Part shown: positions 2,454 to 45,240 of the stretch, one piece after another
How positions within the stretch are numbered: position 1 is the first letter of the stretch
Layout of the letters: each line of letters begins with the position of its first letter
Sequence record: OP557969.1
Reading direction: 5' to 3' (one strand)
DNA: 64,000 bases
Origin: Escherichia phage ph0011
The notes under the pieces: model-generated
Told to the model about the DNA's origin: nothing
Seen by the model: the letters and a program-made list of their open reading frames with translations, nothing else
Databases searched by the model: none
Position numbers and translations under genes: made by a program

Positions 2454-3068
2454 ATGACTACATCTGAAAAGTACTGGTGGATTATGGGCCATCCTAAATT
2501 CATCAACGGAGATATGGTTCCCCCAAGGATTGATATCGAACCACATGATGTGTGTCCAATCACAAACCGCATTGAATCATTTAAAGCTCTGAATACAAAG
2601 ACACAATTTTGGGTAGAATTCATCTCACCTATGTACGTTGAGCAAGATGATGAATGGGTACAAGCACATGATTATGAGTTAGATTGCGGTGGTGATACTT
2701 ATGATGAGGCAATTGATGCACTATACAAAAATGTACTAAACACTTATGGTGATTACACCCAACAAGAAGCAGACGATACGTTTAATAAGATCCATGCAGC
2801 CATTTCTACATCATCAATTTACAATTCTGCAAAAACAGTTTGGGAAGAACGTCACGGGTGGAGTTCATCTGTAATTGATGCAGAAGCCAAAGAAACAATT
2901 CTCGAAGACATAAAAAATATAAAAAGTACAATAGAAGCCTTGCGTGAATTTATAAAGTCTTGTACAATAGAACAACAGAAAGAGGCAAAGATGCATTTGG
3001 AGAGTGAAGAATGTAAACTTTGGGTTCTAGAGAAATCTATTGAAAAGGGTATAGACTTAGACTTATGA
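2454..3068 (+). CDS. hypothetical protein (start moved to first ATG after GGAG)
   Basis: ORF track frame; ttggagaaaatcATG gives GGAG-7nt-ATG. Confidence 0.45.
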   Translation: MTTSEKYWWIMGHPKFINGDMVPPRIDIEPHDVCPITNRIESFKALNTKTQFWVEFISPMYVEQDDEWVQAHDYELDCGGDTYDEAIDALYKNVLNTYGDYTQQEADDTFNKIHAAISTSSIYNSAKTVWEERHGWSSSVIDAEAKETILEDIKNIKSTIEALREFIKSCTIEQQKEAKMHLESEECKLWVLEKSIEKGIDLDL

Positions 3069-3433
3069 ATCGTAAACTTGAGAAACTAATTGAAGAACTA
3101 CGCCGGATGCCACCCATCGAGCAAGTGGGGAGTTACAAACGTTATCGTGTGATTGCTCGTGCACTAGATAAGAAAGGTCGTGTATTGGCAACACGTACTA
3201 ATTCTTACACACATACTCACCCAGTACAGAAAGGTTTTGCAATCCGTGCTGGAAGACCACAAGGTGAGTTTCTTCATGCTGAAATTTCATGTTTATTAGC
3301 TTCACGTGCTGAAGTTCATACTTTGTTGATTGCACGGATAAGTAAAGATGGTATTCCAGTTCCAGCCAAGCCTTGTGAGATTTGTACGTTGGCAATTATG
3401 GAATATGGGGTCAAAGAAATTATTCACACATGA
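3065..3433 (+). CDS. cytidine/deoxycytidylate deaminase-like zinc-binding protein
   Basis: HAE ... PCEIC motif pair (H-x-E and PCxxC zinc ligands of the CDA fold) about 33 residues apart. Confidence 0.45.
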   Translation: MNRKLEKLIEELRRMPPIEQVGSYKRYRVIARALDKKGRVLATRTNSYTHTHPVQKGFAIRAGRPQGEFLHAEISCLLASRAEVHTLLIARISKDGIPVPAKPCEICTLAIMEYGVKEIIHT

Positions 3434-30644: not shown

Positions 30645-31757
30645 ATGAAAAAGTATTTGGTTGGAGGTTATACGAGAGATCGTTTAATGGGCATCCGTGC
30701 AAAAGACAAAGATTATGTCATTGTTGGTGCAACTGAATCCGATATTAAGTACTTGCAAAGTATTGGTTATAAGCAAGTAGGCAAGGACTTCCCTGTGTAC
30801 TTGAGTCCAGAGGGTAATGAACACGCATTGGCTCGTACCGAGCGTAAGACTGGTACTGGATATGGTGGTTTCGAAGTGAATACAAAAGGTGTGACACTAG
30901 AACAAGATCTATATCGTCGTGATCTCACAATCAATAGTATTGCTTATGATCCAGTACTCCAGATTCACATCGACCCTTATGGTGGGAAAGCTGATATCAA
31001 GAACAAAGTACTTCGTCATGTATCAGAACACTTTAAAGAAGATCCATTGCGTGTTCTACGTTTGGCCCGTTTCGCTACACGTTATTCAGACTTTTCTATC
31101 CATGAAAGTACAGAGGAACTTGCTATTAGTATGGTCAATAGTGGTGAATTAGATCATCTTGTCCCAGACCGTGTTTTTGTTGAATTTGAAAAAGCACTTT
31201 CTGAAGAAAAACCATCTAAATTCCTCAAAACCCTAAGTAAATTTGGTTATTATGAGAAAGTTTTCAAAACATCTCTAACTAAAAAGAATTTAGACATAAT
31301 TGATTATATTTCTGATAACTGCACGGATGTATATAAACCATATTTCTTGTGGGCAGTACTTCTTGAAAATGAAGAAGTAGATAATAATTCTGTTCTAAAT
31401 GGTGCTATTAAAGTACCAGTAAAGTATGTAAAATTTAGTAATTACATCAAACGTTTTTCTGATGATATCAAAACCTTCCGAAAAAAGACCCCAGATGAAA
31501 TGGGTAATATTTTAATGGAAATGAATATCAAAAACAACGGAGGTGAAGGATTCCTTTATAAAGTATTGGAGTATTTCATTTTACGAAAAGAAATCGATTT
31601 AGAACATGAAGACCTGATTGTTAAAGTATATGACAGATATACTGATGTAGTATTACCTGATATTCAGCAACTGGTGAAAGACGGTGAACTTGAAACATCA
31701 GAAATTCGTGATTTTGTTTGTGGGCTACGTTACGAAGCAATTAAACAATTATTCTAA
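30645..31757 (+). CDS. cca: tRNA nucleotidyltransferase (CCA-adding enzyme / poly(A) polymerase family)
   Basis: MKKYLVGGYTRDRLMG ... GYKQVGKDFPVYL ... ALARTERK ... RRDLTINSIAYD matches class II nucleotidyltransferase head domain as recalled from E. coli Cca. Confidence 0.85.
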   Translation: MKKYLVGGYTRDRLMGIRAKDKDYVIVGATESDIKYLQSIGYKQVGKDFPVYLSPEGNEHALARTERKTGTGYGGFEVNTKGVTLEQDLYRRDLTINSIAYDPVLQIHIDPYGGKADIKNKVLRHVSEHFKEDPLRVLRLARFATRYSDFSIHESTEELAISMVNSGELDHLVPDRVFVEFEKALSEEKPSKFLKTLSKFGYYEKVFKTSLTKKNLDIIDYISDNCTDVYKPYFLWAVLLENEEVDNNSVLNGAIKVPVKYVKFSNYIKRFSDDIKTFRKKTPDEMGNILMEMNIKNNGGEGFLYKVLEYFILRKEIDLEHEDLIVKVYDRYTDVVLPDIQQLVKDGELETSEIRDFVCGLRYEAIKQLF

Positions 31758-31867
31758 AAAAATCGGGACAAAAAACCAATAACTGATATAATTATTAGTA
31801 TCTGAACATCGATTGATGACAAAGAGATAAGATATGCGTTATAGTTGTGGAATAATATTTTATCGTG

Positions 31868-32266
31868 ATGGGCAGATACTTATCGGGCATACAACACGGA
31901 CAGAATCATTGGGATTTACCTAAAGGGAAAGCTGAGGGTAATGAAACATTTAAAGAAGCTGCTGTCCGTGAGTGCTACGAAGAGACAGGATACGAAATTG
32001 ATGAAGATGATCTTTTGTTTCTTGGTGATGTTTCCTATAGAAAGGGAAAAAGGCTAGTACTTTTCTTTTATACTGCCAAAGACAAACCTGTACCTGAAGA
32101 ATTAGTTTGTAAAAGTACTTACACTAACAGATACGGTAAGAGTCATCCAGAATTGGATAAGTTCATGTACATTGATGTACGAGAATGTCAAAAGTATTTG
32201 ACTGAACGAATGTGTAACAGTATTATTAAAGCTGTTAAAGCTTTTCAAAGAAATAGAAGGAAATAA
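31868..32266 (+). CDS. Nudix hydrolase (apparent +1 frameshift relative to a 29-codon upstream ORF that encodes the expected N-terminal beta strands)
   Basis: Nudix box GKAEGNETFKEAAVRECYEETGY (Gx5Ex7REUxEExGU); WDLPKG upstream; N-terminal segment MRYSCGIIFYRDGQILIGHTT is in frame 31834..31923. Confidence 0.7.
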   Translation: MGRYLSGIQHGQNHWDLPKGKAEGNETFKEAAVRECYEETGYEIDEDDLLFLGDVSYRKGKRLVLFFYTAKDKPVPEELVCKSTYTNRYGKSHPELDKFMYIDVRECQKYLTERMCNSIIKAVKAFQRNRRK

Positions 32267-32267
32267 C

Positions 32268-32516
32268 ATGAAAGTTAAAATTTATGGTCGAAAGACTGGT
32301 TGTAAATTTTGCGATACAGCTAAAGCTGTGTGTGAACAAAATAATTTTGATATGGAGTTCATTGATATTGTTGCTGAAGGGATTGATGGTGCTAAACTAT
32401 CAGAAATTTGTGGTGAACCTGTGCGTCAAGTTCCACAGATTTTCGTGAATGATGTTTATGTACCTGGTGGTTGTACTGGATTTATCAACGGACTCAAAGA
32501 AGGTCATTGGAAATAA
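32268..32516 (+). CDS. nrdC: glutaredoxin/thioredoxin-like small redox protein (T4 NrdC-like)
   Basis: 82 aa with CKFC redox motif near N-terminus; position next to nucleotide-metabolism genes. Confidence 0.6.
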   Translation: MKVKIYGRKTGCKFCDTAKAVCEQNNFDMEFIDIVAEGIDGAKLSEICGEPVRQVPQIFVNDVYVPGGCTGFINGLKEGHWK

Positions 32517-32758
32517 TGGATATTGAAAAGGTATCATCTCGTGCAAAACATCTAGCTGATACATTGGGAGTTGAGTTTAAAATTCCTGATATTACAATAG
32601 CTAAAGAAAAAGCCCAGAAGAAAATCAATAAGATGAAAGAATATCTATCTAAACAGGAACAATATGATTCTGCTGTAGAATTTATTATACAATCTTTTAG
32701 TAAAGATGATATTAAAGCATTCATCCAATATGTGAAGGTTTCTGATAACCCTAAATAA
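32516..32758 (+). CDS. hypothetical protein (start at ATG overlapping nrdC stop, TAATG)
   Basis: in frame with ORF-track ORF 32471..32758. Confidence 0.45.
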   Translation: MDIEKVSSRAKHLADTLGVEFKIPDITIAKEKAQKKINKMKEYLSKQEQYDSAVEFIIQSFSKDDIKAFIQYVKVSDNPK

Positions 32759-32803
32759 TCATGAAGAACAAAAGTTCTTCATAACAATTTGGGAGATACT
32801 ATT

Positions 32804-33046
32804 ATGCTCAGTTTTCGTGAACAATTAGCAAAAGGTCAATTTCAGGCTAAAGCTCAAACTAACATTCCAAAAAAATCTGCTTTTTTGGGAACAATTACGG
32901 AAGATGGATATTGTGATTATGATGCACCAGAGGACTCATGGTACATCACAAAAGACACAAAACGCAGTAATAGACTTCACAAAAGTACAATAGCTAGAAA
33001 GCATCGAAAAGAATTGAAAAAAATCCGTTTCGGTGAAGAAGAATAA
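32804..33046 (+). CDS. hypothetical basic protein (start moved to ATG after GGGAGA)
   Basis: ORF-track frame. Confidence 0.4.
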   Translation: MLSFREQLAKGQFQAKAQTNIPKKSAFLGTITEDGYCDYDAPEDSWYITKDTKRSNRLHKSTIARKHRKELKKIRFGEEE

Positions 33047-33055
33047 TTTAAAATA

Positions 33056-33085
33056 AGGACTCTGACTATAGAGTCCTTTCTTTTC
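33056..33085 (+). terminator. intrinsic terminator
   Basis: aggactct/agagtcct 8-bp stem, T-rich tail. Confidence 0.7.
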
Positions 33086-33095
33086 GGAGAACATA

Positions 33096-33572
33096 ATGAT
33101 TCATGAACACAGAGGTAATCTGTTTGAATTATTCAGTACTGTAACAGATGATAATTCAGCATTACATATAATTGCTCATGGTTGTAACGCACAAGGTAAA
33201 ATGGGTTCAGGTTTTGCAAAAGAACTAAGAAATCGCTATCCAATGGCATATGATGATTATAAAGCATATGAAAAGGAAATGGGATTTCTAAGAACTGGGC
33301 AAATTTCATATTCTTTGGTAAGCAATGATTTGATTATTGCAAATTGTATTACGCAACAGTACTATGGCAATGATGGTAAAAAATATGTAAGTTATGATGC
33401 AGTTGACGATGTTTTTAAACAACTCAATTACTTATGTAATGTTGAACGAAGTATTCATGTGCACTTTCCGAAAATTGGAGCCGATTTGGGTGGTGGTAAC
33501 TGGAACGTTATCAAAGAAATCATTGATCATCGTTTGGTTAATGCAGAAAAACATTTATATATTCTAAAATAA
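33096..33572 (+). CDS. macro-domain (ADP-ribose-binding/processing) protein
   Basis: IIAHGCNAQGKMGSGFA ... FPKIGADLGGGNW pattern typical of macro/Appr-1-p processing domains. Confidence 0.55.
   Translation: MIHEHRGNLFELFSTVTDDNSALHIIAHGCNAQGKMGSGFAKELRNRYPMAYDDYKAYEKEMGFLRTGQISYSLVSNDLIIANCITQQYYGNDGKKYVSYDAVDDVFKQLNYLCNVERSIHVHFPKIGADLGGGNWNVIKEIIDHRLVNAEKHLYILK

Positions 33573-44229: not shown

Positions 44230-45240
<1,011 letters not shown>

What the first reader, a model, noticed from the sequence alone, without database searches (positions are those of the whole stretch)
31834..31925. Nudix hydrolase gene appears split by a +1 frameshift
Frame A (ATG 31834) encodes MRYSCGIIFYRDGQILIGHTT, matching the two N-terminal beta strands expected of a Nudix fold, then runs into a stop at 31921. 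The Nudix box and the rest of the domain are in the +1 frame (31868..32266). Joining the frames near 31897 would give ...ILIGHTTGQNHWDLPKGKAEG..., a plausible complete enzyme. This is a sequencing error, a recent pseudogenisation or truncation, or a translational frameshift site.
Basis: seen in the sequence. Interest (0 to 1): 0.45.

Follow-up and report, generated by a model that had tools for sequence, protein, structure and literature searches.

The report
Conserved +1 frameshift in phage Nudix gene
A small hydrolase gene of a giant E. coli phage is broken by one extra base that every sequenced member of its genus has kept while both halves stay under selection, so the ribosome most likely skips that base at a very rare codon to make the full enzyme; no public annotation seen here records this.

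Summary
Frame A (ATG 31834) encodes 21 residues that match the Nudix N-terminus and stops at 31921-23. The rest of the enzyme is in the +1 frame, ending at 32266.

The window is an Asteriusvirus-like jumbo coliphage (121Q/PBECO4 group). All 14 members inspected at nucleotide level carry the same one-base break inside an invariant CAYACAACACGGACA. The other database records fit the same break. Every sister lineage has one continuous ORF (HTTGQ; for example ACA ACA GGT). So one C (31897) was inserted in the genus ancestor.

Selection switches frame at that point. pN/pS is 0.045 in frame A upstream (0.83 if read in frame B) and 0.12 in frame B downstream. This rules out a sequencing error and a recent pseudogene.

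The zero-frame codon at the junction, CGG, is the rarest sense codon in the window (5 of 18,403 codons).

Best reading (about 0.65): a conserved, unannotated "corrective" +1 ribosomal frameshift at ACA_CGG_A. Thr-tRNA sits in the P site, the ribosome waits at CGG, and Gly-tRNA reads GGA. The product is a 143-aa Nudix hydrolase.

No protein evidence exists. A split two-chain enzyme is the main rival. This is a new member of a known kind and of moderate interest.

The parts
31765..31792 (+). Promoter-like site: GGGACA, 16 nt, then an extended -10 (TGATATAAT, with TATAAT at 31787-92).
   Evidence: The consensus scan gives 10 of 12 matches with a TG extension. CTGATATAAT is invariant in 7 aligned relatives. 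Function is inferred, not shown.
31821..31826 (+). Shine-Dalgarno-like AAAGAG, 7 nt upstream of ATG 31834.
   Evidence: GAGATAAGAT(T)ATG is invariant in the aligned Asteriusvirus sequences. The same ATG is the annotated start, with an RBS, in the fused Yersinia phage gene.
31834..31896 (+). Frame A coding part: codons 1-21, MRYSCGIIFYRDGQILIGHTT. These are the two N-terminal beta strands of the Nudix fold.
   Evidence: Of 8 variable sites among the 6 representative members compared, 7 are synonymous third positions and 1 is a conservative I/V change. pN/pS is 0.045 in frame A and 0.83 in frame B. The segment corresponds to strands 2-8 and 14-20 in the AF2 model of an 82%-identical fused homologue.
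31891..31900 (+). Proposed shift site ACA_ACA_CGG_A. The P-site codon is ACA 31894-96 (Thr21). [quoted passage not shown] The +1 A-site codon is GGA 31898-31900 (Gly22).
   Evidence: ACAACACGGACA (31891-31902) is invariant in 14 of 14 split genomes, although the same codons vary freely in fused relatives. CGG is the rarest sense codon, 5 of 18,403. The motif is unique in the window.
31897..31897 (+). The extra nucleotide (C) relative to continuous homologues. This is the base that has to be skipped.
   Evidence: Compare fused ACC ACT GGT, ACA ACA GGT or ACT ACG GGG with window ACA ACA C GGA.
31898..32266 (+). Frame B (+1) coding part: codons 22-143 plus the stop (TAA 32264-66). It contains the Nudix box at 31925-31993.
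   Evidence: Pfam NUDIX match. pN/pS is 0.118 in frame B, and variable sites fall on frame-B third positions from 31903 onward.
31921..31923 (+). Zero-frame stop (TAA) that ends the 29-aa product when no shift occurs.
   Evidence: Its position is not conserved: in phage A4 it is AAA and the stop lies 2 codons later. The frame-A tail evolves neutrally, with pN/pS 1.37.
31868..31870 (+). Frame-B ATG used as the start codon in the annotated public records inspected (132-136 aa CDS). It is probably not the real start.
   Evidence: Annotations. No SD-like sequence lies upstream. The 10 residues it would add (MGRYLSGIQH) are not conserved (pN/pS 0.83). The ATG is forced by the frame-A codons GAT GGN.

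Best explanation
The gene encodes one 143-aa Nudix hydrolase of the RppH / Ap4A-hydrolase / T4 NudE-like type. Making it requires a +1 ribosomal frameshift.

Translation starts at ATG 31834 and reads 21 codons in frame A. With peptidyl-tRNA-Thr on ACA (31894-96) in the P site, the A site presents CGG. This is the rarest codon of the phage, and in E. coli it is read by a scarce tRNA-Arg(CCG). During the wait, Gly-tRNA(UCC) reads the overlapping GGA (31898-31900). C31897 is skipped and translation continues in frame B to 32266, giving ...GHTT-GQNHWDLPKG...

Ribosomes that do not shift finish a 29-aa peptide at TAA 31921.

The extra C arose once, in the ancestor of the genus Asteriusvirus, and has been kept since. 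That makes this a 'corrective' or programmed frameshift, possibly one that holds the enzyme at a low level.

Shown: the break, its clade-wide conservation, the switch of selected frame at the junction, the rarity of CGG, and the structural need for the N-terminal part.

Inferred: that the ribosome, rather than something else, bridges the frames; the exact P-site and A-site assignment; and the efficiency.
For: (1) The same one-base break sits within an invariant CAYACAACACGGACA in 14 of 14 Asteriusvirus sequences inspected. These come from many countries and sequencing projects. For 34 database records of the genus, tblastn pieces start at residue 15-22 instead of 1.

(2) All sister lineages have one continuous ORF with HTTGQ at the junction. 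They include Eneladusvirus, GAP32, CBB, Munch-like phages, RaK2/K64-1 and metagenomic contigs. The closest outgroup is syntenic, 73-76% identical in nucleotides, and also fused.

(3) Selection flips frame at the junction. Upstream, 7 of 8 variable sites are frame-A third positions, with pN/pS 0.045 in frame A and 0.83 in frame B. Downstream, pN/pS is 0.118 in frame B and 1.37 in frame A. The last frame-A-type change is at 31890 and the first frame-B-type change is at 31903.

(4) CGG is the rarest sense codon in the window, 5 of 18,403 codons or 0.27 per thousand. In E. coli, CGG in the A site is a documented +1-promoting codon: about 639 tRNA-Arg(CCG) molecules per cell, and a yehP +1 shift at a CGG_C site confirmed by mass spectrometry (PMC2790909). 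Glass-sponge mitochondria show the same architecture, an inserted T or C directly 5' of GGA that creates a rare UGG_A or CGG_A (PMC5009743; PMC2267718).

(5) The third positions of ACA, ACA and GGA, and the extra C, never vary in the split clade. Only 32% of the other fourfold-degenerate sites are invariant, giving roughly P = 0.01-0.03. The same codons vary freely in fused relatives.

(6) The frame-A part forms strands 2-8 and 14-20 of a confident Nudix model (pLDDT 93.6) and is among the most conserved segments of the family. Gly22 is nearly invariant, which fits a shift that happens before CGG is decoded.

(7) The real start has a conserved promoter-like site and an SD-like sequence. ATG 31868 has none.

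(8) The phages encode tRNA-Thr(UGU). The 121Q-like members also encode tRNA-Gly(UCC). None encodes tRNA-Arg(CCG).
Against: There is no direct evidence for the trans-frame protein: no proteomics or ribosome profiling was found.

The P-site tRNA-Thr(UGU) cannot re-pair on the +1 codon CAC. The site is therefore not of the prfB or Ty1 slippage type, and natural no-slip +1 frameshifts are poorly documented in bacteria.

No conserved SD-like or structural stimulator was found.

Three apparently genuine genes in the window carry in-frame CGG_A codons: a deaminase-like ORF at 3065-3433 (twice) and a head-closure ORF at 44233-44652. So CGG_A alone does not force efficient shifting, and the efficiency here may be low.

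tRNA-Gly(UCC) is absent from the fEgEco12 tRNA cluster that was examined, where the published description also lists none.
Confidence: 0.65

Rival explanations
1. Split enzyme. The 29-aa frame-A peptide (strands beta1 and beta2) and a 132-aa C-fragment started independently at ATG 31868 or GTG 31865 are made as two chains. They associate non-covalently into an active Nudix fold, with no frameshift.
For: This reading explains purifying selection on both parts, each in its own frame. A frame-B ATG exists and is what every annotated record inspected uses.
Against: ATG 31868 has no SD-like sequence and lies inside the translated frame-A ORF. That ATG is also present in fused relatives, simply because of the R-D-G codons, so it is not an adaptation.

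The model does not explain why the junction codon is the rarest codon, nor why the neutral sites of ACA ACA C GGA are frozen.

The variable 10-residue frame-B extension would have to sit where strand beta2 belongs.
Confidence: 0.17
2. The truncated 132-aa protein, as annotated, is the functional product on its own. The upstream ORF is a separately selected leader or micro-peptide.
For: This is the current annotation in the annotated public records inspected.
Against: The product would lack beta1 and replace beta2 of a compact 143-aa fold.

The upstream peptide keeps exactly the ancestral Nudix N-terminal sequence, under constraint at least as strong as the catalytic part (pN/pS 0.045 against 0.118). 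That is unexpected for an unrelated leader peptide.
Confidence: 0.08
3. The frame is corrected, but not by standard ribosome slippage. Candidates are transcriptional slippage or RNA editing that removes the C, or a quadruplet-reading (8-nt anticodon loop) tRNA that decodes ACAC or CGGA.
For: The frame must be restored somehow, and these phages do carry their own tRNA genes.
Against: There is no homopolymer run at the site for RNA polymerase slippage.

All 7 Sharanji tRNAs and all 6 fEgEco12 tRNAs have ordinary three-base anticodons. The tRNA-Thr(UGU) has a normal 7-nt loop.

No editing system is known for these phages (own knowledge).
Confidence: 0.04
4. The feature is a sequencing or assembly error, or a decaying pseudogene.
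For: A single-base frame break is what either would look like in one genome. One low-quality record (CMSTMSU, flagged UNVERIFIED) has additional breaks.
Against: The break is identical in 14 independent genomes in a non-homopolymer context.

The clade has a synonymous divergence of about 0.5, yet there are no further stops or indels in 13 of 14 sequences, and pN/pS is 0.05-0.12 on both sides.
Confidence: 0.02

Closest known systems
Corrective +1 frameshifting in glass-sponge (Hexactinellida) mitochondrial genes (cox3, nad6 and others)
   Same: A single inserted base lies directly 5' of a GGA glycine codon and creates an extremely rare zero-frame codon (UGG_A, rarely CGG_A). Both flanks are conserved in their own frames. 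The inferred mechanism is a pause at the rare codon followed by entry of abundant Gly-tRNA in the +1 frame, without P-site re-pairing (PMC2267718; PMC5009743).
   Different: That system is mitochondrial, with a reduced tRNA set. This case is in a dsDNA jumbo phage translated by E. coli or Salmonella ribosomes, and the gene is a non-essential-looking accessory enzyme. Neither case has protein-level proof.
E. coli +1 frameshifting at CGG A-site codons (yehP and FSscan candidates) and at tandem rare Arg codons
   Same: Same host translation apparatus. CGG in the zero-frame A site has a scarce cognate tRNA, and the +1 codon is a glycine codon (GGC there, GGA here). The yehP shift at a CGG_C site was confirmed by mass spectrometry (PMC2790909).
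   Different: In yehP the shift yields a truncated side product of a normal gene, and an SD-like GGAG lies upstream. Here the shift is needed to make the only full-length product, and no SD-like stimulator is conserved.
Yeast Ty3 (GCG_AGU_U) programmed +1 frameshift
   Same: The P-site tRNA cannot re-pair in the +1 frame. A slow zero-frame A-site codon allows out-of-frame binding of the next aminoacyl-tRNA. This comparison rests on my own knowledge and on PMC5009743.
   Different: Ty3 is eukaryotic, depends on particular peptidyl-tRNAs and has a downstream stimulator. None of these features could be tested here.
prfB (RF2) programmed +1 frameshift and Listeria phage PSA +1 frameshifts
   Same: A +1 shift is required for, or used for, a functional product in bacteria and phages. 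A slow A site is involved (a stop codon in those cases).
   Different: Those sites use a re-pairing P-site codon (CUU_U, CCC_U) and, for prfB, an upstream SD-like element. Both features were tested here and not met.
Phage T4 NudE (gene e.1) and bacterial RppH / Ap4A hydrolases
   Same: The encoded protein is homologous. tblastn finds T4-like nudE genes at 34-40% identity from residue 4. The best sequence match in the PDB is Aquifex Ap4A hydrolase 3i7u. The best fold matches are E. coli RppH, 3i7u and Dcp2.
   Different: All of those are encoded by continuous ORFs. The substrate of the Asteriusvirus enzyme is unknown.

Membership tests
Nudix hydrolase superfamily (PF00293) | Sequence match to the NUDIX profile above the curated threshold | tested here: met
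   The joined protein scores 52 bits (cut-off 21.1), E = 9.3e-14, matching profile positions 7-95. It also matches PHROG 1185 'nudix hydrolase' at 1.7e-53.
Nudix hydrolase superfamily (PF00293) | Nudix box GX5EX7REUXEEXGU | tested here: met
   The box reads G31-KAEGN-E37-TFKEAAV-R45-E46-C-Y-E49-E50-T-G52-Y, read from the translation. The two 'U' positions are Cys and Tyr. G31, E37, R45, E46, C47, E49 and E50 are invariant in 41 relatives; G52 is conserved in most but not all of them.
Nudix hydrolase superfamily (PF00293) | Alpha/beta/alpha Nudix fold that includes the two N-terminal strands | tested here: met
   The AF2 model of the fused homologue P0001 (82% identical) has pLDDT 93.6 and strands at 2-8 and 14-20. 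Foldseek matches RppH, Ap4A hydrolase and Dcp2 at E of about 1e-9. The joined window protein itself could not be submitted.
Nudix hydrolase superfamily (PF00293) | Pyrophosphohydrolase activity on a nucleoside-diphosphate-X substrate | not testable with these tools
   This needs an enzyme assay.
Programmed or corrective +1 ribosomal frameshift (rare-codon, no-slip type) | Zero and +1 ORFs overlap, and each is under purifying selection in its own frame up to and from the junction | tested here: met
   pN/pS is 0.045 (frame A, upstream) and 0.118 (frame B, downstream). The wrong frames give 0.83 and 1.37.
Programmed or corrective +1 ribosomal frameshift (rare-codon, no-slip type) | The break is conserved across a diverged clade and the gene is continuous in outgroups | tested here: met
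   14 of 14 split sequences were read at nucleotide level. All 22 outgroup loci with the gene are fused, as is the closest syntenic outgroup lineage (three contigs).
Programmed or corrective +1 ribosomal frameshift (rare-codon, no-slip type) | Slow-to-decode zero-frame A-site codon at the junction | tested here: met
   CGG is the rarest sense codon in the window, 0.27 per thousand. Its tRNA is scarce in E. coli (PMC2790909). No phage tRNA-Arg(CCG) was found.
Programmed or corrective +1 ribosomal frameshift (rare-codon, no-slip type) | Nucleotide-level conservation of the shift site beyond what coding requires | tested here: inconclusive
   Three synonymous sites and the extra C are all invariant, while 11 of 34 other fourfold-degenerate sites are invariant. 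This gives roughly P = 0.01-0.03 from few lineages.
Programmed or corrective +1 ribosomal frameshift (rare-codon, no-slip type) | Detection of the trans-frame polypeptide | not testable with these tools
   No proteomic or Ribo-seq data were found.
prfB / Ty1-type +1 frameshift | The P-site tRNA can re-pair on the +1 codon | tested here: not met
   ACA shifted by +1 gives CAC, which offers no standard pair with anticodon UGU. This is read directly from the sequence.
prfB / Ty1-type +1 frameshift | Conserved SD-like stimulator a few nucleotides upstream | tested here: not met
   Upstream is ATC/GTT GGN CAY, with variable bases and no AGGAGG-like element.
Pseudogene | Relaxed selection and accumulation of further disabling mutations | tested here: not met
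   pN/pS is 0.05-0.12. Both parts are intact in 13 of 14 genomes despite pS of about 0.5.
Quadruplet decoding by a suppressor tRNA | A tRNA with an 8-nt anticodon loop in the phage | tested here: not met
   ARAGORN reports only three-base anticodons in the tRNA clusters of Sharanji and fEgEco12. The tRNA-Thr loop is CUUGUAA, 7 nt. The window itself has no tRNA genes. Whole genomes were not scanned.

The most novel reading that the evidence does not exclude
The frameshift is not just a tolerated scar but a tuning device. The fraction of ribosomes that shift, and so the amount of an RNA-decapping or Ap4A/NAD-type Nudix activity, would be set by the balance between scarce host tRNA-Arg(CCG) and tRNA-Gly(UCC) and tRNA-Thr(UGU), which the phage itself supplies in some lineages. 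Enzyme level would then track infection stage or host physiology. It would be a natural no-slip +1 recoding site that works on E. coli ribosomes.
Probability: 0.15. Interest if true: 0.75.

Novelty: new member of a known kind. Interest (0 to 1): 0.55.

Why it matters
If confirmed, this would be a natural +1 frameshift that is obligatory for the product and sits at a site with no possibility of tRNA re-pairing. So far that type is inferred mainly in mitochondria and in yeast Ty3. Here it would occur in a phage that grows on laboratory E. coli, so the hungry-codon, out-of-frame-binding mechanism could be tested directly with reporters, tRNA over-expression and mass spectrometry.

There is also a practical consequence. 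The public Asteriusvirus records seen here annotate an N-terminally truncated Nudix protein of 132-136 aa. That product lacks one core strand and replaces a second with unrelated sequence. The annotation should be a joined CDS. Gene finders and PRF predictors that look only for slippery motifs will miss this class of site.

Tried and rejected
- ARAGORN on the window found no tRNA genes, so tRNA content was taken from the relatives Sharanji and fEgEco12. No unusual tRNA was found.
- The IMG/VR and metagenome scans mostly returned genomes already in GenBank. They added one more split example (L023) and several fused ones.
- The motif ACAACACGGA is unique in the window.
- A scan for other +1 ORF junctions with an in-frame CGG found no second case in the 64 kb.
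- RNA folding predicts a helix between CACGGACAG (31895-903) and CUGUCCGUG about 60 nt downstream (z = -3.3). Its central pair is not maintained in relatives and covariation is negligible. The 3' arm is also too far away to act while the ribosome sits on the site. I rejected it as a stimulator.
- Translational hopping between matched codons was considered. ACA to ACA would stay in frame. His CAU to CAC (+7) would delete the conserved Thr-Thr. GGN to GGA fails because the take-off codon varies (GGG, GGA, GGT). All three were rejected.
- A shift after decoding CGG, giving Arg22, was rejected because Gly22 is nearly invariant in the family.
- Reinitiation after TAA 31921 was rejected. No frame-B start codon follows before invariant residues would be lost.
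- Literature searches found no earlier report of this frameshift.
- Two paper searches failed on syntax.
- An NJ tree placed the fused P0001 next to split A4. Nucleotide identities show that P0001's contig is a slightly more distant syntenic outgroup, not a revertant inside the clade. A short protein cannot settle this firmly.

Full report
**What is there.** The window reads as the first-stage reader described.
- ATG 31834 opens a 29-codon ORF, MRYSCGIIFYRDGQILIGHTTRTESLGFT, that stops at TAA 31921-23.
- The +1 frame is open from 31856 to the stop at 32264-66 and contains the Nudix box (31925-31993).
- Joining after codon 21 and skipping C31897 gives a 143-aa protein. It matches Pfam NUDIX from profile position 7 at 52 bits. 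The ORF taken from its own first start codon matches only from position 26 at 48 bits.
- The best solved-structure match, Aquifex Ap4A hydrolase 3i7u, aligns from residue 3 straight across the junction.

**Where the window comes from.** Megablast places it in the jumbo coliphage group of 121Q and PBECO4 (genus Asteriusvirus). There are 35 records at 80-92% nucleotide identity over this region. The gene order is CCA-adding enzyme, Nudix, glutaredoxin, small ORFs, macro-domain protein. Every annotated record inspected starts the Nudix CDS at the frame-B ATG that corresponds to 31868, giving 132-136 aa. None of the feature tables seen marks a joined CDS.

**The break is conserved in the genus and absent outside it.**
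- I read the site in 14 Asteriusvirus sequences: the window, 121Q, SHEFM2K, UE-S1, fEgEco12, A4, Turkey5, JNE01, TH47, BF17, CMSTMSU, SD-1_S14, phAPEC6 and one metagenomic contig.
- All have the same frame-A ORF, the same +1 continuation and an invariant CAYACAACACGGACA.
- In tblastn, the main piece begins at residue 15-22 for the 34 records of the genus that were listed. For all other phages it begins at residue 1.
- Every sister lineage has one continuous ORF with HTTGQ (or HCTGQ, HATGQ) at the junction. These include Eneladusvirus (fHe-Yen9-03/04, Serratia BF, Erwinia pEa_SNUABM), GAP32, CBB, the Salmonella phage Munch group, E. coli EJP2, Klebsiella K64-1 and several metagenomic contigs.
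- Their junction DNA reads, for example, ACC ACT GGT, ACA ACA GGT or ACA ACT GGA.
- The closest fused relative (P0001, Logan and ENA contigs) is syntenic and 73-76% identical in nucleotides. It reads CAT ACT ACG GGG CAG.
- The window reads ACA ACA C GGA CAG. So exactly one C was gained, once, in the ancestor of the genus.

**Selection.** Six representative Asteriusvirus members (the window, 121Q, UE-S1, fEgEco12, A4 and Turkey5) were compared.
- The 63 nt upstream of the extra base have 8 variable sites. Seven are frame-A third positions and synonymous. One is a conservative Ile/Val change that is also seen in fused relatives.
- pN/pS upstream is 0.045 in frame A. The stretch from ATG 31868 read in frame B gives 0.83.
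- Downstream, pN/pS is 0.118 in frame B, with pS of about 0.5. The frame-A tail gives 1.37, and its stop codon moves in phage A4.
- The last frame-A-type substitution is at 31890 and the first frame-B-type substitution is at 31903. The 12 nt between them never vary.
- This excludes a sequencing error and a decaying pseudogene. It shows that the upstream 21 codons are translated in frame A and the rest in frame B.

**Why the two parts must belong to one protein.**
- The N-terminal segment is among the most conserved parts of the family.
- In a confident AlphaFold model of the 82%-identical fused homologue (pLDDT 93.6), residues 2-8 and 14-20 are the first two beta strands of the Nudix sandwich.
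- The fold matches RppH, Ap4A hydrolase and Dcp2.
- A product started at ATG 31868 would lack beta1 and would carry ten unconserved residues in place of beta2.
- ATG 31868 has no SD-like sequence. It exists in fused relatives too, simply because of the Arg-Asp-Gly codons.
- ATG 31834 is preceded by a conserved AAAGAG and by a conserved extended -10 promoter-like element.

**Mechanism proposed.**
- The zero-frame codon created by the insertion is CGG, the rarest sense codon in the window: 5 of 18,403 codons in ORFs of at least 100 aa. Two of the five are in a doubtful antisense ORF.
- In E. coli, CGG has a scarce cognate tRNA. A CGG-containing A site (CGG_C in that study) scored among the strongest +1-promoting A sites, and a yehP +1 shift at a CGG_C site was confirmed by mass spectrometry (PMC2790909).
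- The architecture is an inserted base directly 5' of GGA that produces a very rare zero-frame codon. This is what has been described for corrective +1 frameshifting in glass-sponge mitochondria (UGG_A, rarely CGG_A). That case was interpreted like Ty3, as out-of-frame binding of Gly-tRNA without P-site slippage (PMC2267718; PMC5009743).
- Here the P-site codon ACA cannot re-pair on CAC, and no SD-like element is conserved. The site is therefore not of the prfB type.
- Gly22 is nearly invariant in the family, which fits a shift before CGG is decoded. The product would be ...GHTT-GQNHW....
- The phages encode tRNA-Thr(UGU). The 121Q-like members also encode tRNA-Gly(UCC). None encodes tRNA-Arg(CCG), and all anticodon loops are ordinary.
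- The synonymous positions of ACA, ACA and GGA and the extra C are frozen in the split clade, while only about a third of other fourfold-degenerate sites are. The same codons vary in fused relatives. This is modest support for constraint on the site itself.

**Weak points.**
- Nothing here shows the trans-frame protein.
- The efficiency is unknown. It may be low, because three in-frame CGG_A codons occur in apparently genuine genes of the same window.
- No stimulator was identified. A predicted long-range helix that covers the site lacks covariation.
- The main rival is a naturally split enzyme, a 29-aa peptide plus a C-fragment. It fits the selection data but not the rare codon, the frozen site or the lack of an initiation signal.
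- Transcript-level correction and quadruplet-reading tRNAs find no support.

**Comparison and novelty.**
- The protein is an ordinary member of the Nudix superfamily. It is homologous to T4 NudE at 34-40% identity.
- The recoding signal works like the rare-codon, no-slip class of +1 frameshifts (glass-sponge mitochondria, Ty3, E. coli yehP). It fails the defining features of the prfB and Ty1 class.
- I found no report of it, and the annotated public records inspected give the truncated ORF.
- I classify it as a new member of a known kind.
- Interest is moderate, about 0.55. It is an experimentally tractable, clade-conserved, obligatory +1 site on E. coli ribosomes, but it is supported so far only by comparative evidence.

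Noticed in passing
Proteins P0008, P0013, P0014, P0017, P0020, P0022. Window equivalent: 31834-32516.: Several metagenomic relatives encode a single 225-227-aa ORF that fuses the Nudix domain to the downstream glutaredoxin (PF00293 + PF00462). In the window the two are separate genes, one base apart (Nudix stop 32264-66, grx ATG 32268). This suggests the two proteins work together.
   Followed up: partly
window 31895-31903 and about 31962-31970: CACGGACAG, which covers the shift site, is perfectly complementary to CUGUCCGUG about 60 nt downstream. The fold z-score is -3.3. In relatives the central pair is lost (N = A, G or U) and covariation is negligible. The match is probably fortuitous.
   Followed up: partly
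L022 5651-5742 (phage Sharanji), compared with L021 3874-3963 (fEgEco12): One Sharanji tRNA-Ser has the anticodon ACU (A34), where fEgEco12 has GCU in a different tRNA-Ser that is 80% identical. The Sharanji paper lists a phage tRNA-specific adenosine deaminase (PMC11895373). An I34 tRNA-Ser would be unusual.
   Followed up: no
window 3065-3433 and 44233-44652: The few genuine in-frame CGG codons in the window are all followed by A (CGG_ATG and CGG_ATA in a deaminase-like ORF; CGG_ATT in a head-closure ORF). This is the same CGG_A context as the Nudix site. Whether they are conserved or shift-prone was not checked.
   Followed up: no
window 30645-33572: The neighbourhood has an RNA-end and nucleotide-metabolite theme: CCA-adding tRNA nucleotidyltransferase (30645-31757), Nudix, glutaredoxin (32268-32516) and a weak macro-domain protein (33096-33572; 18.5 bits, below the Pfam threshold).
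   Followed up: no
L035 (Escherichia phage CMSTMSU, MH494197.1): This record, flagged UNVERIFIED_ORG, has an additional break in the Nudix C-part (frame B open for only 52 aa) and fragmented neighbouring CDSs. It looks like a low-quality assembly rather than biology.
   Followed up: no
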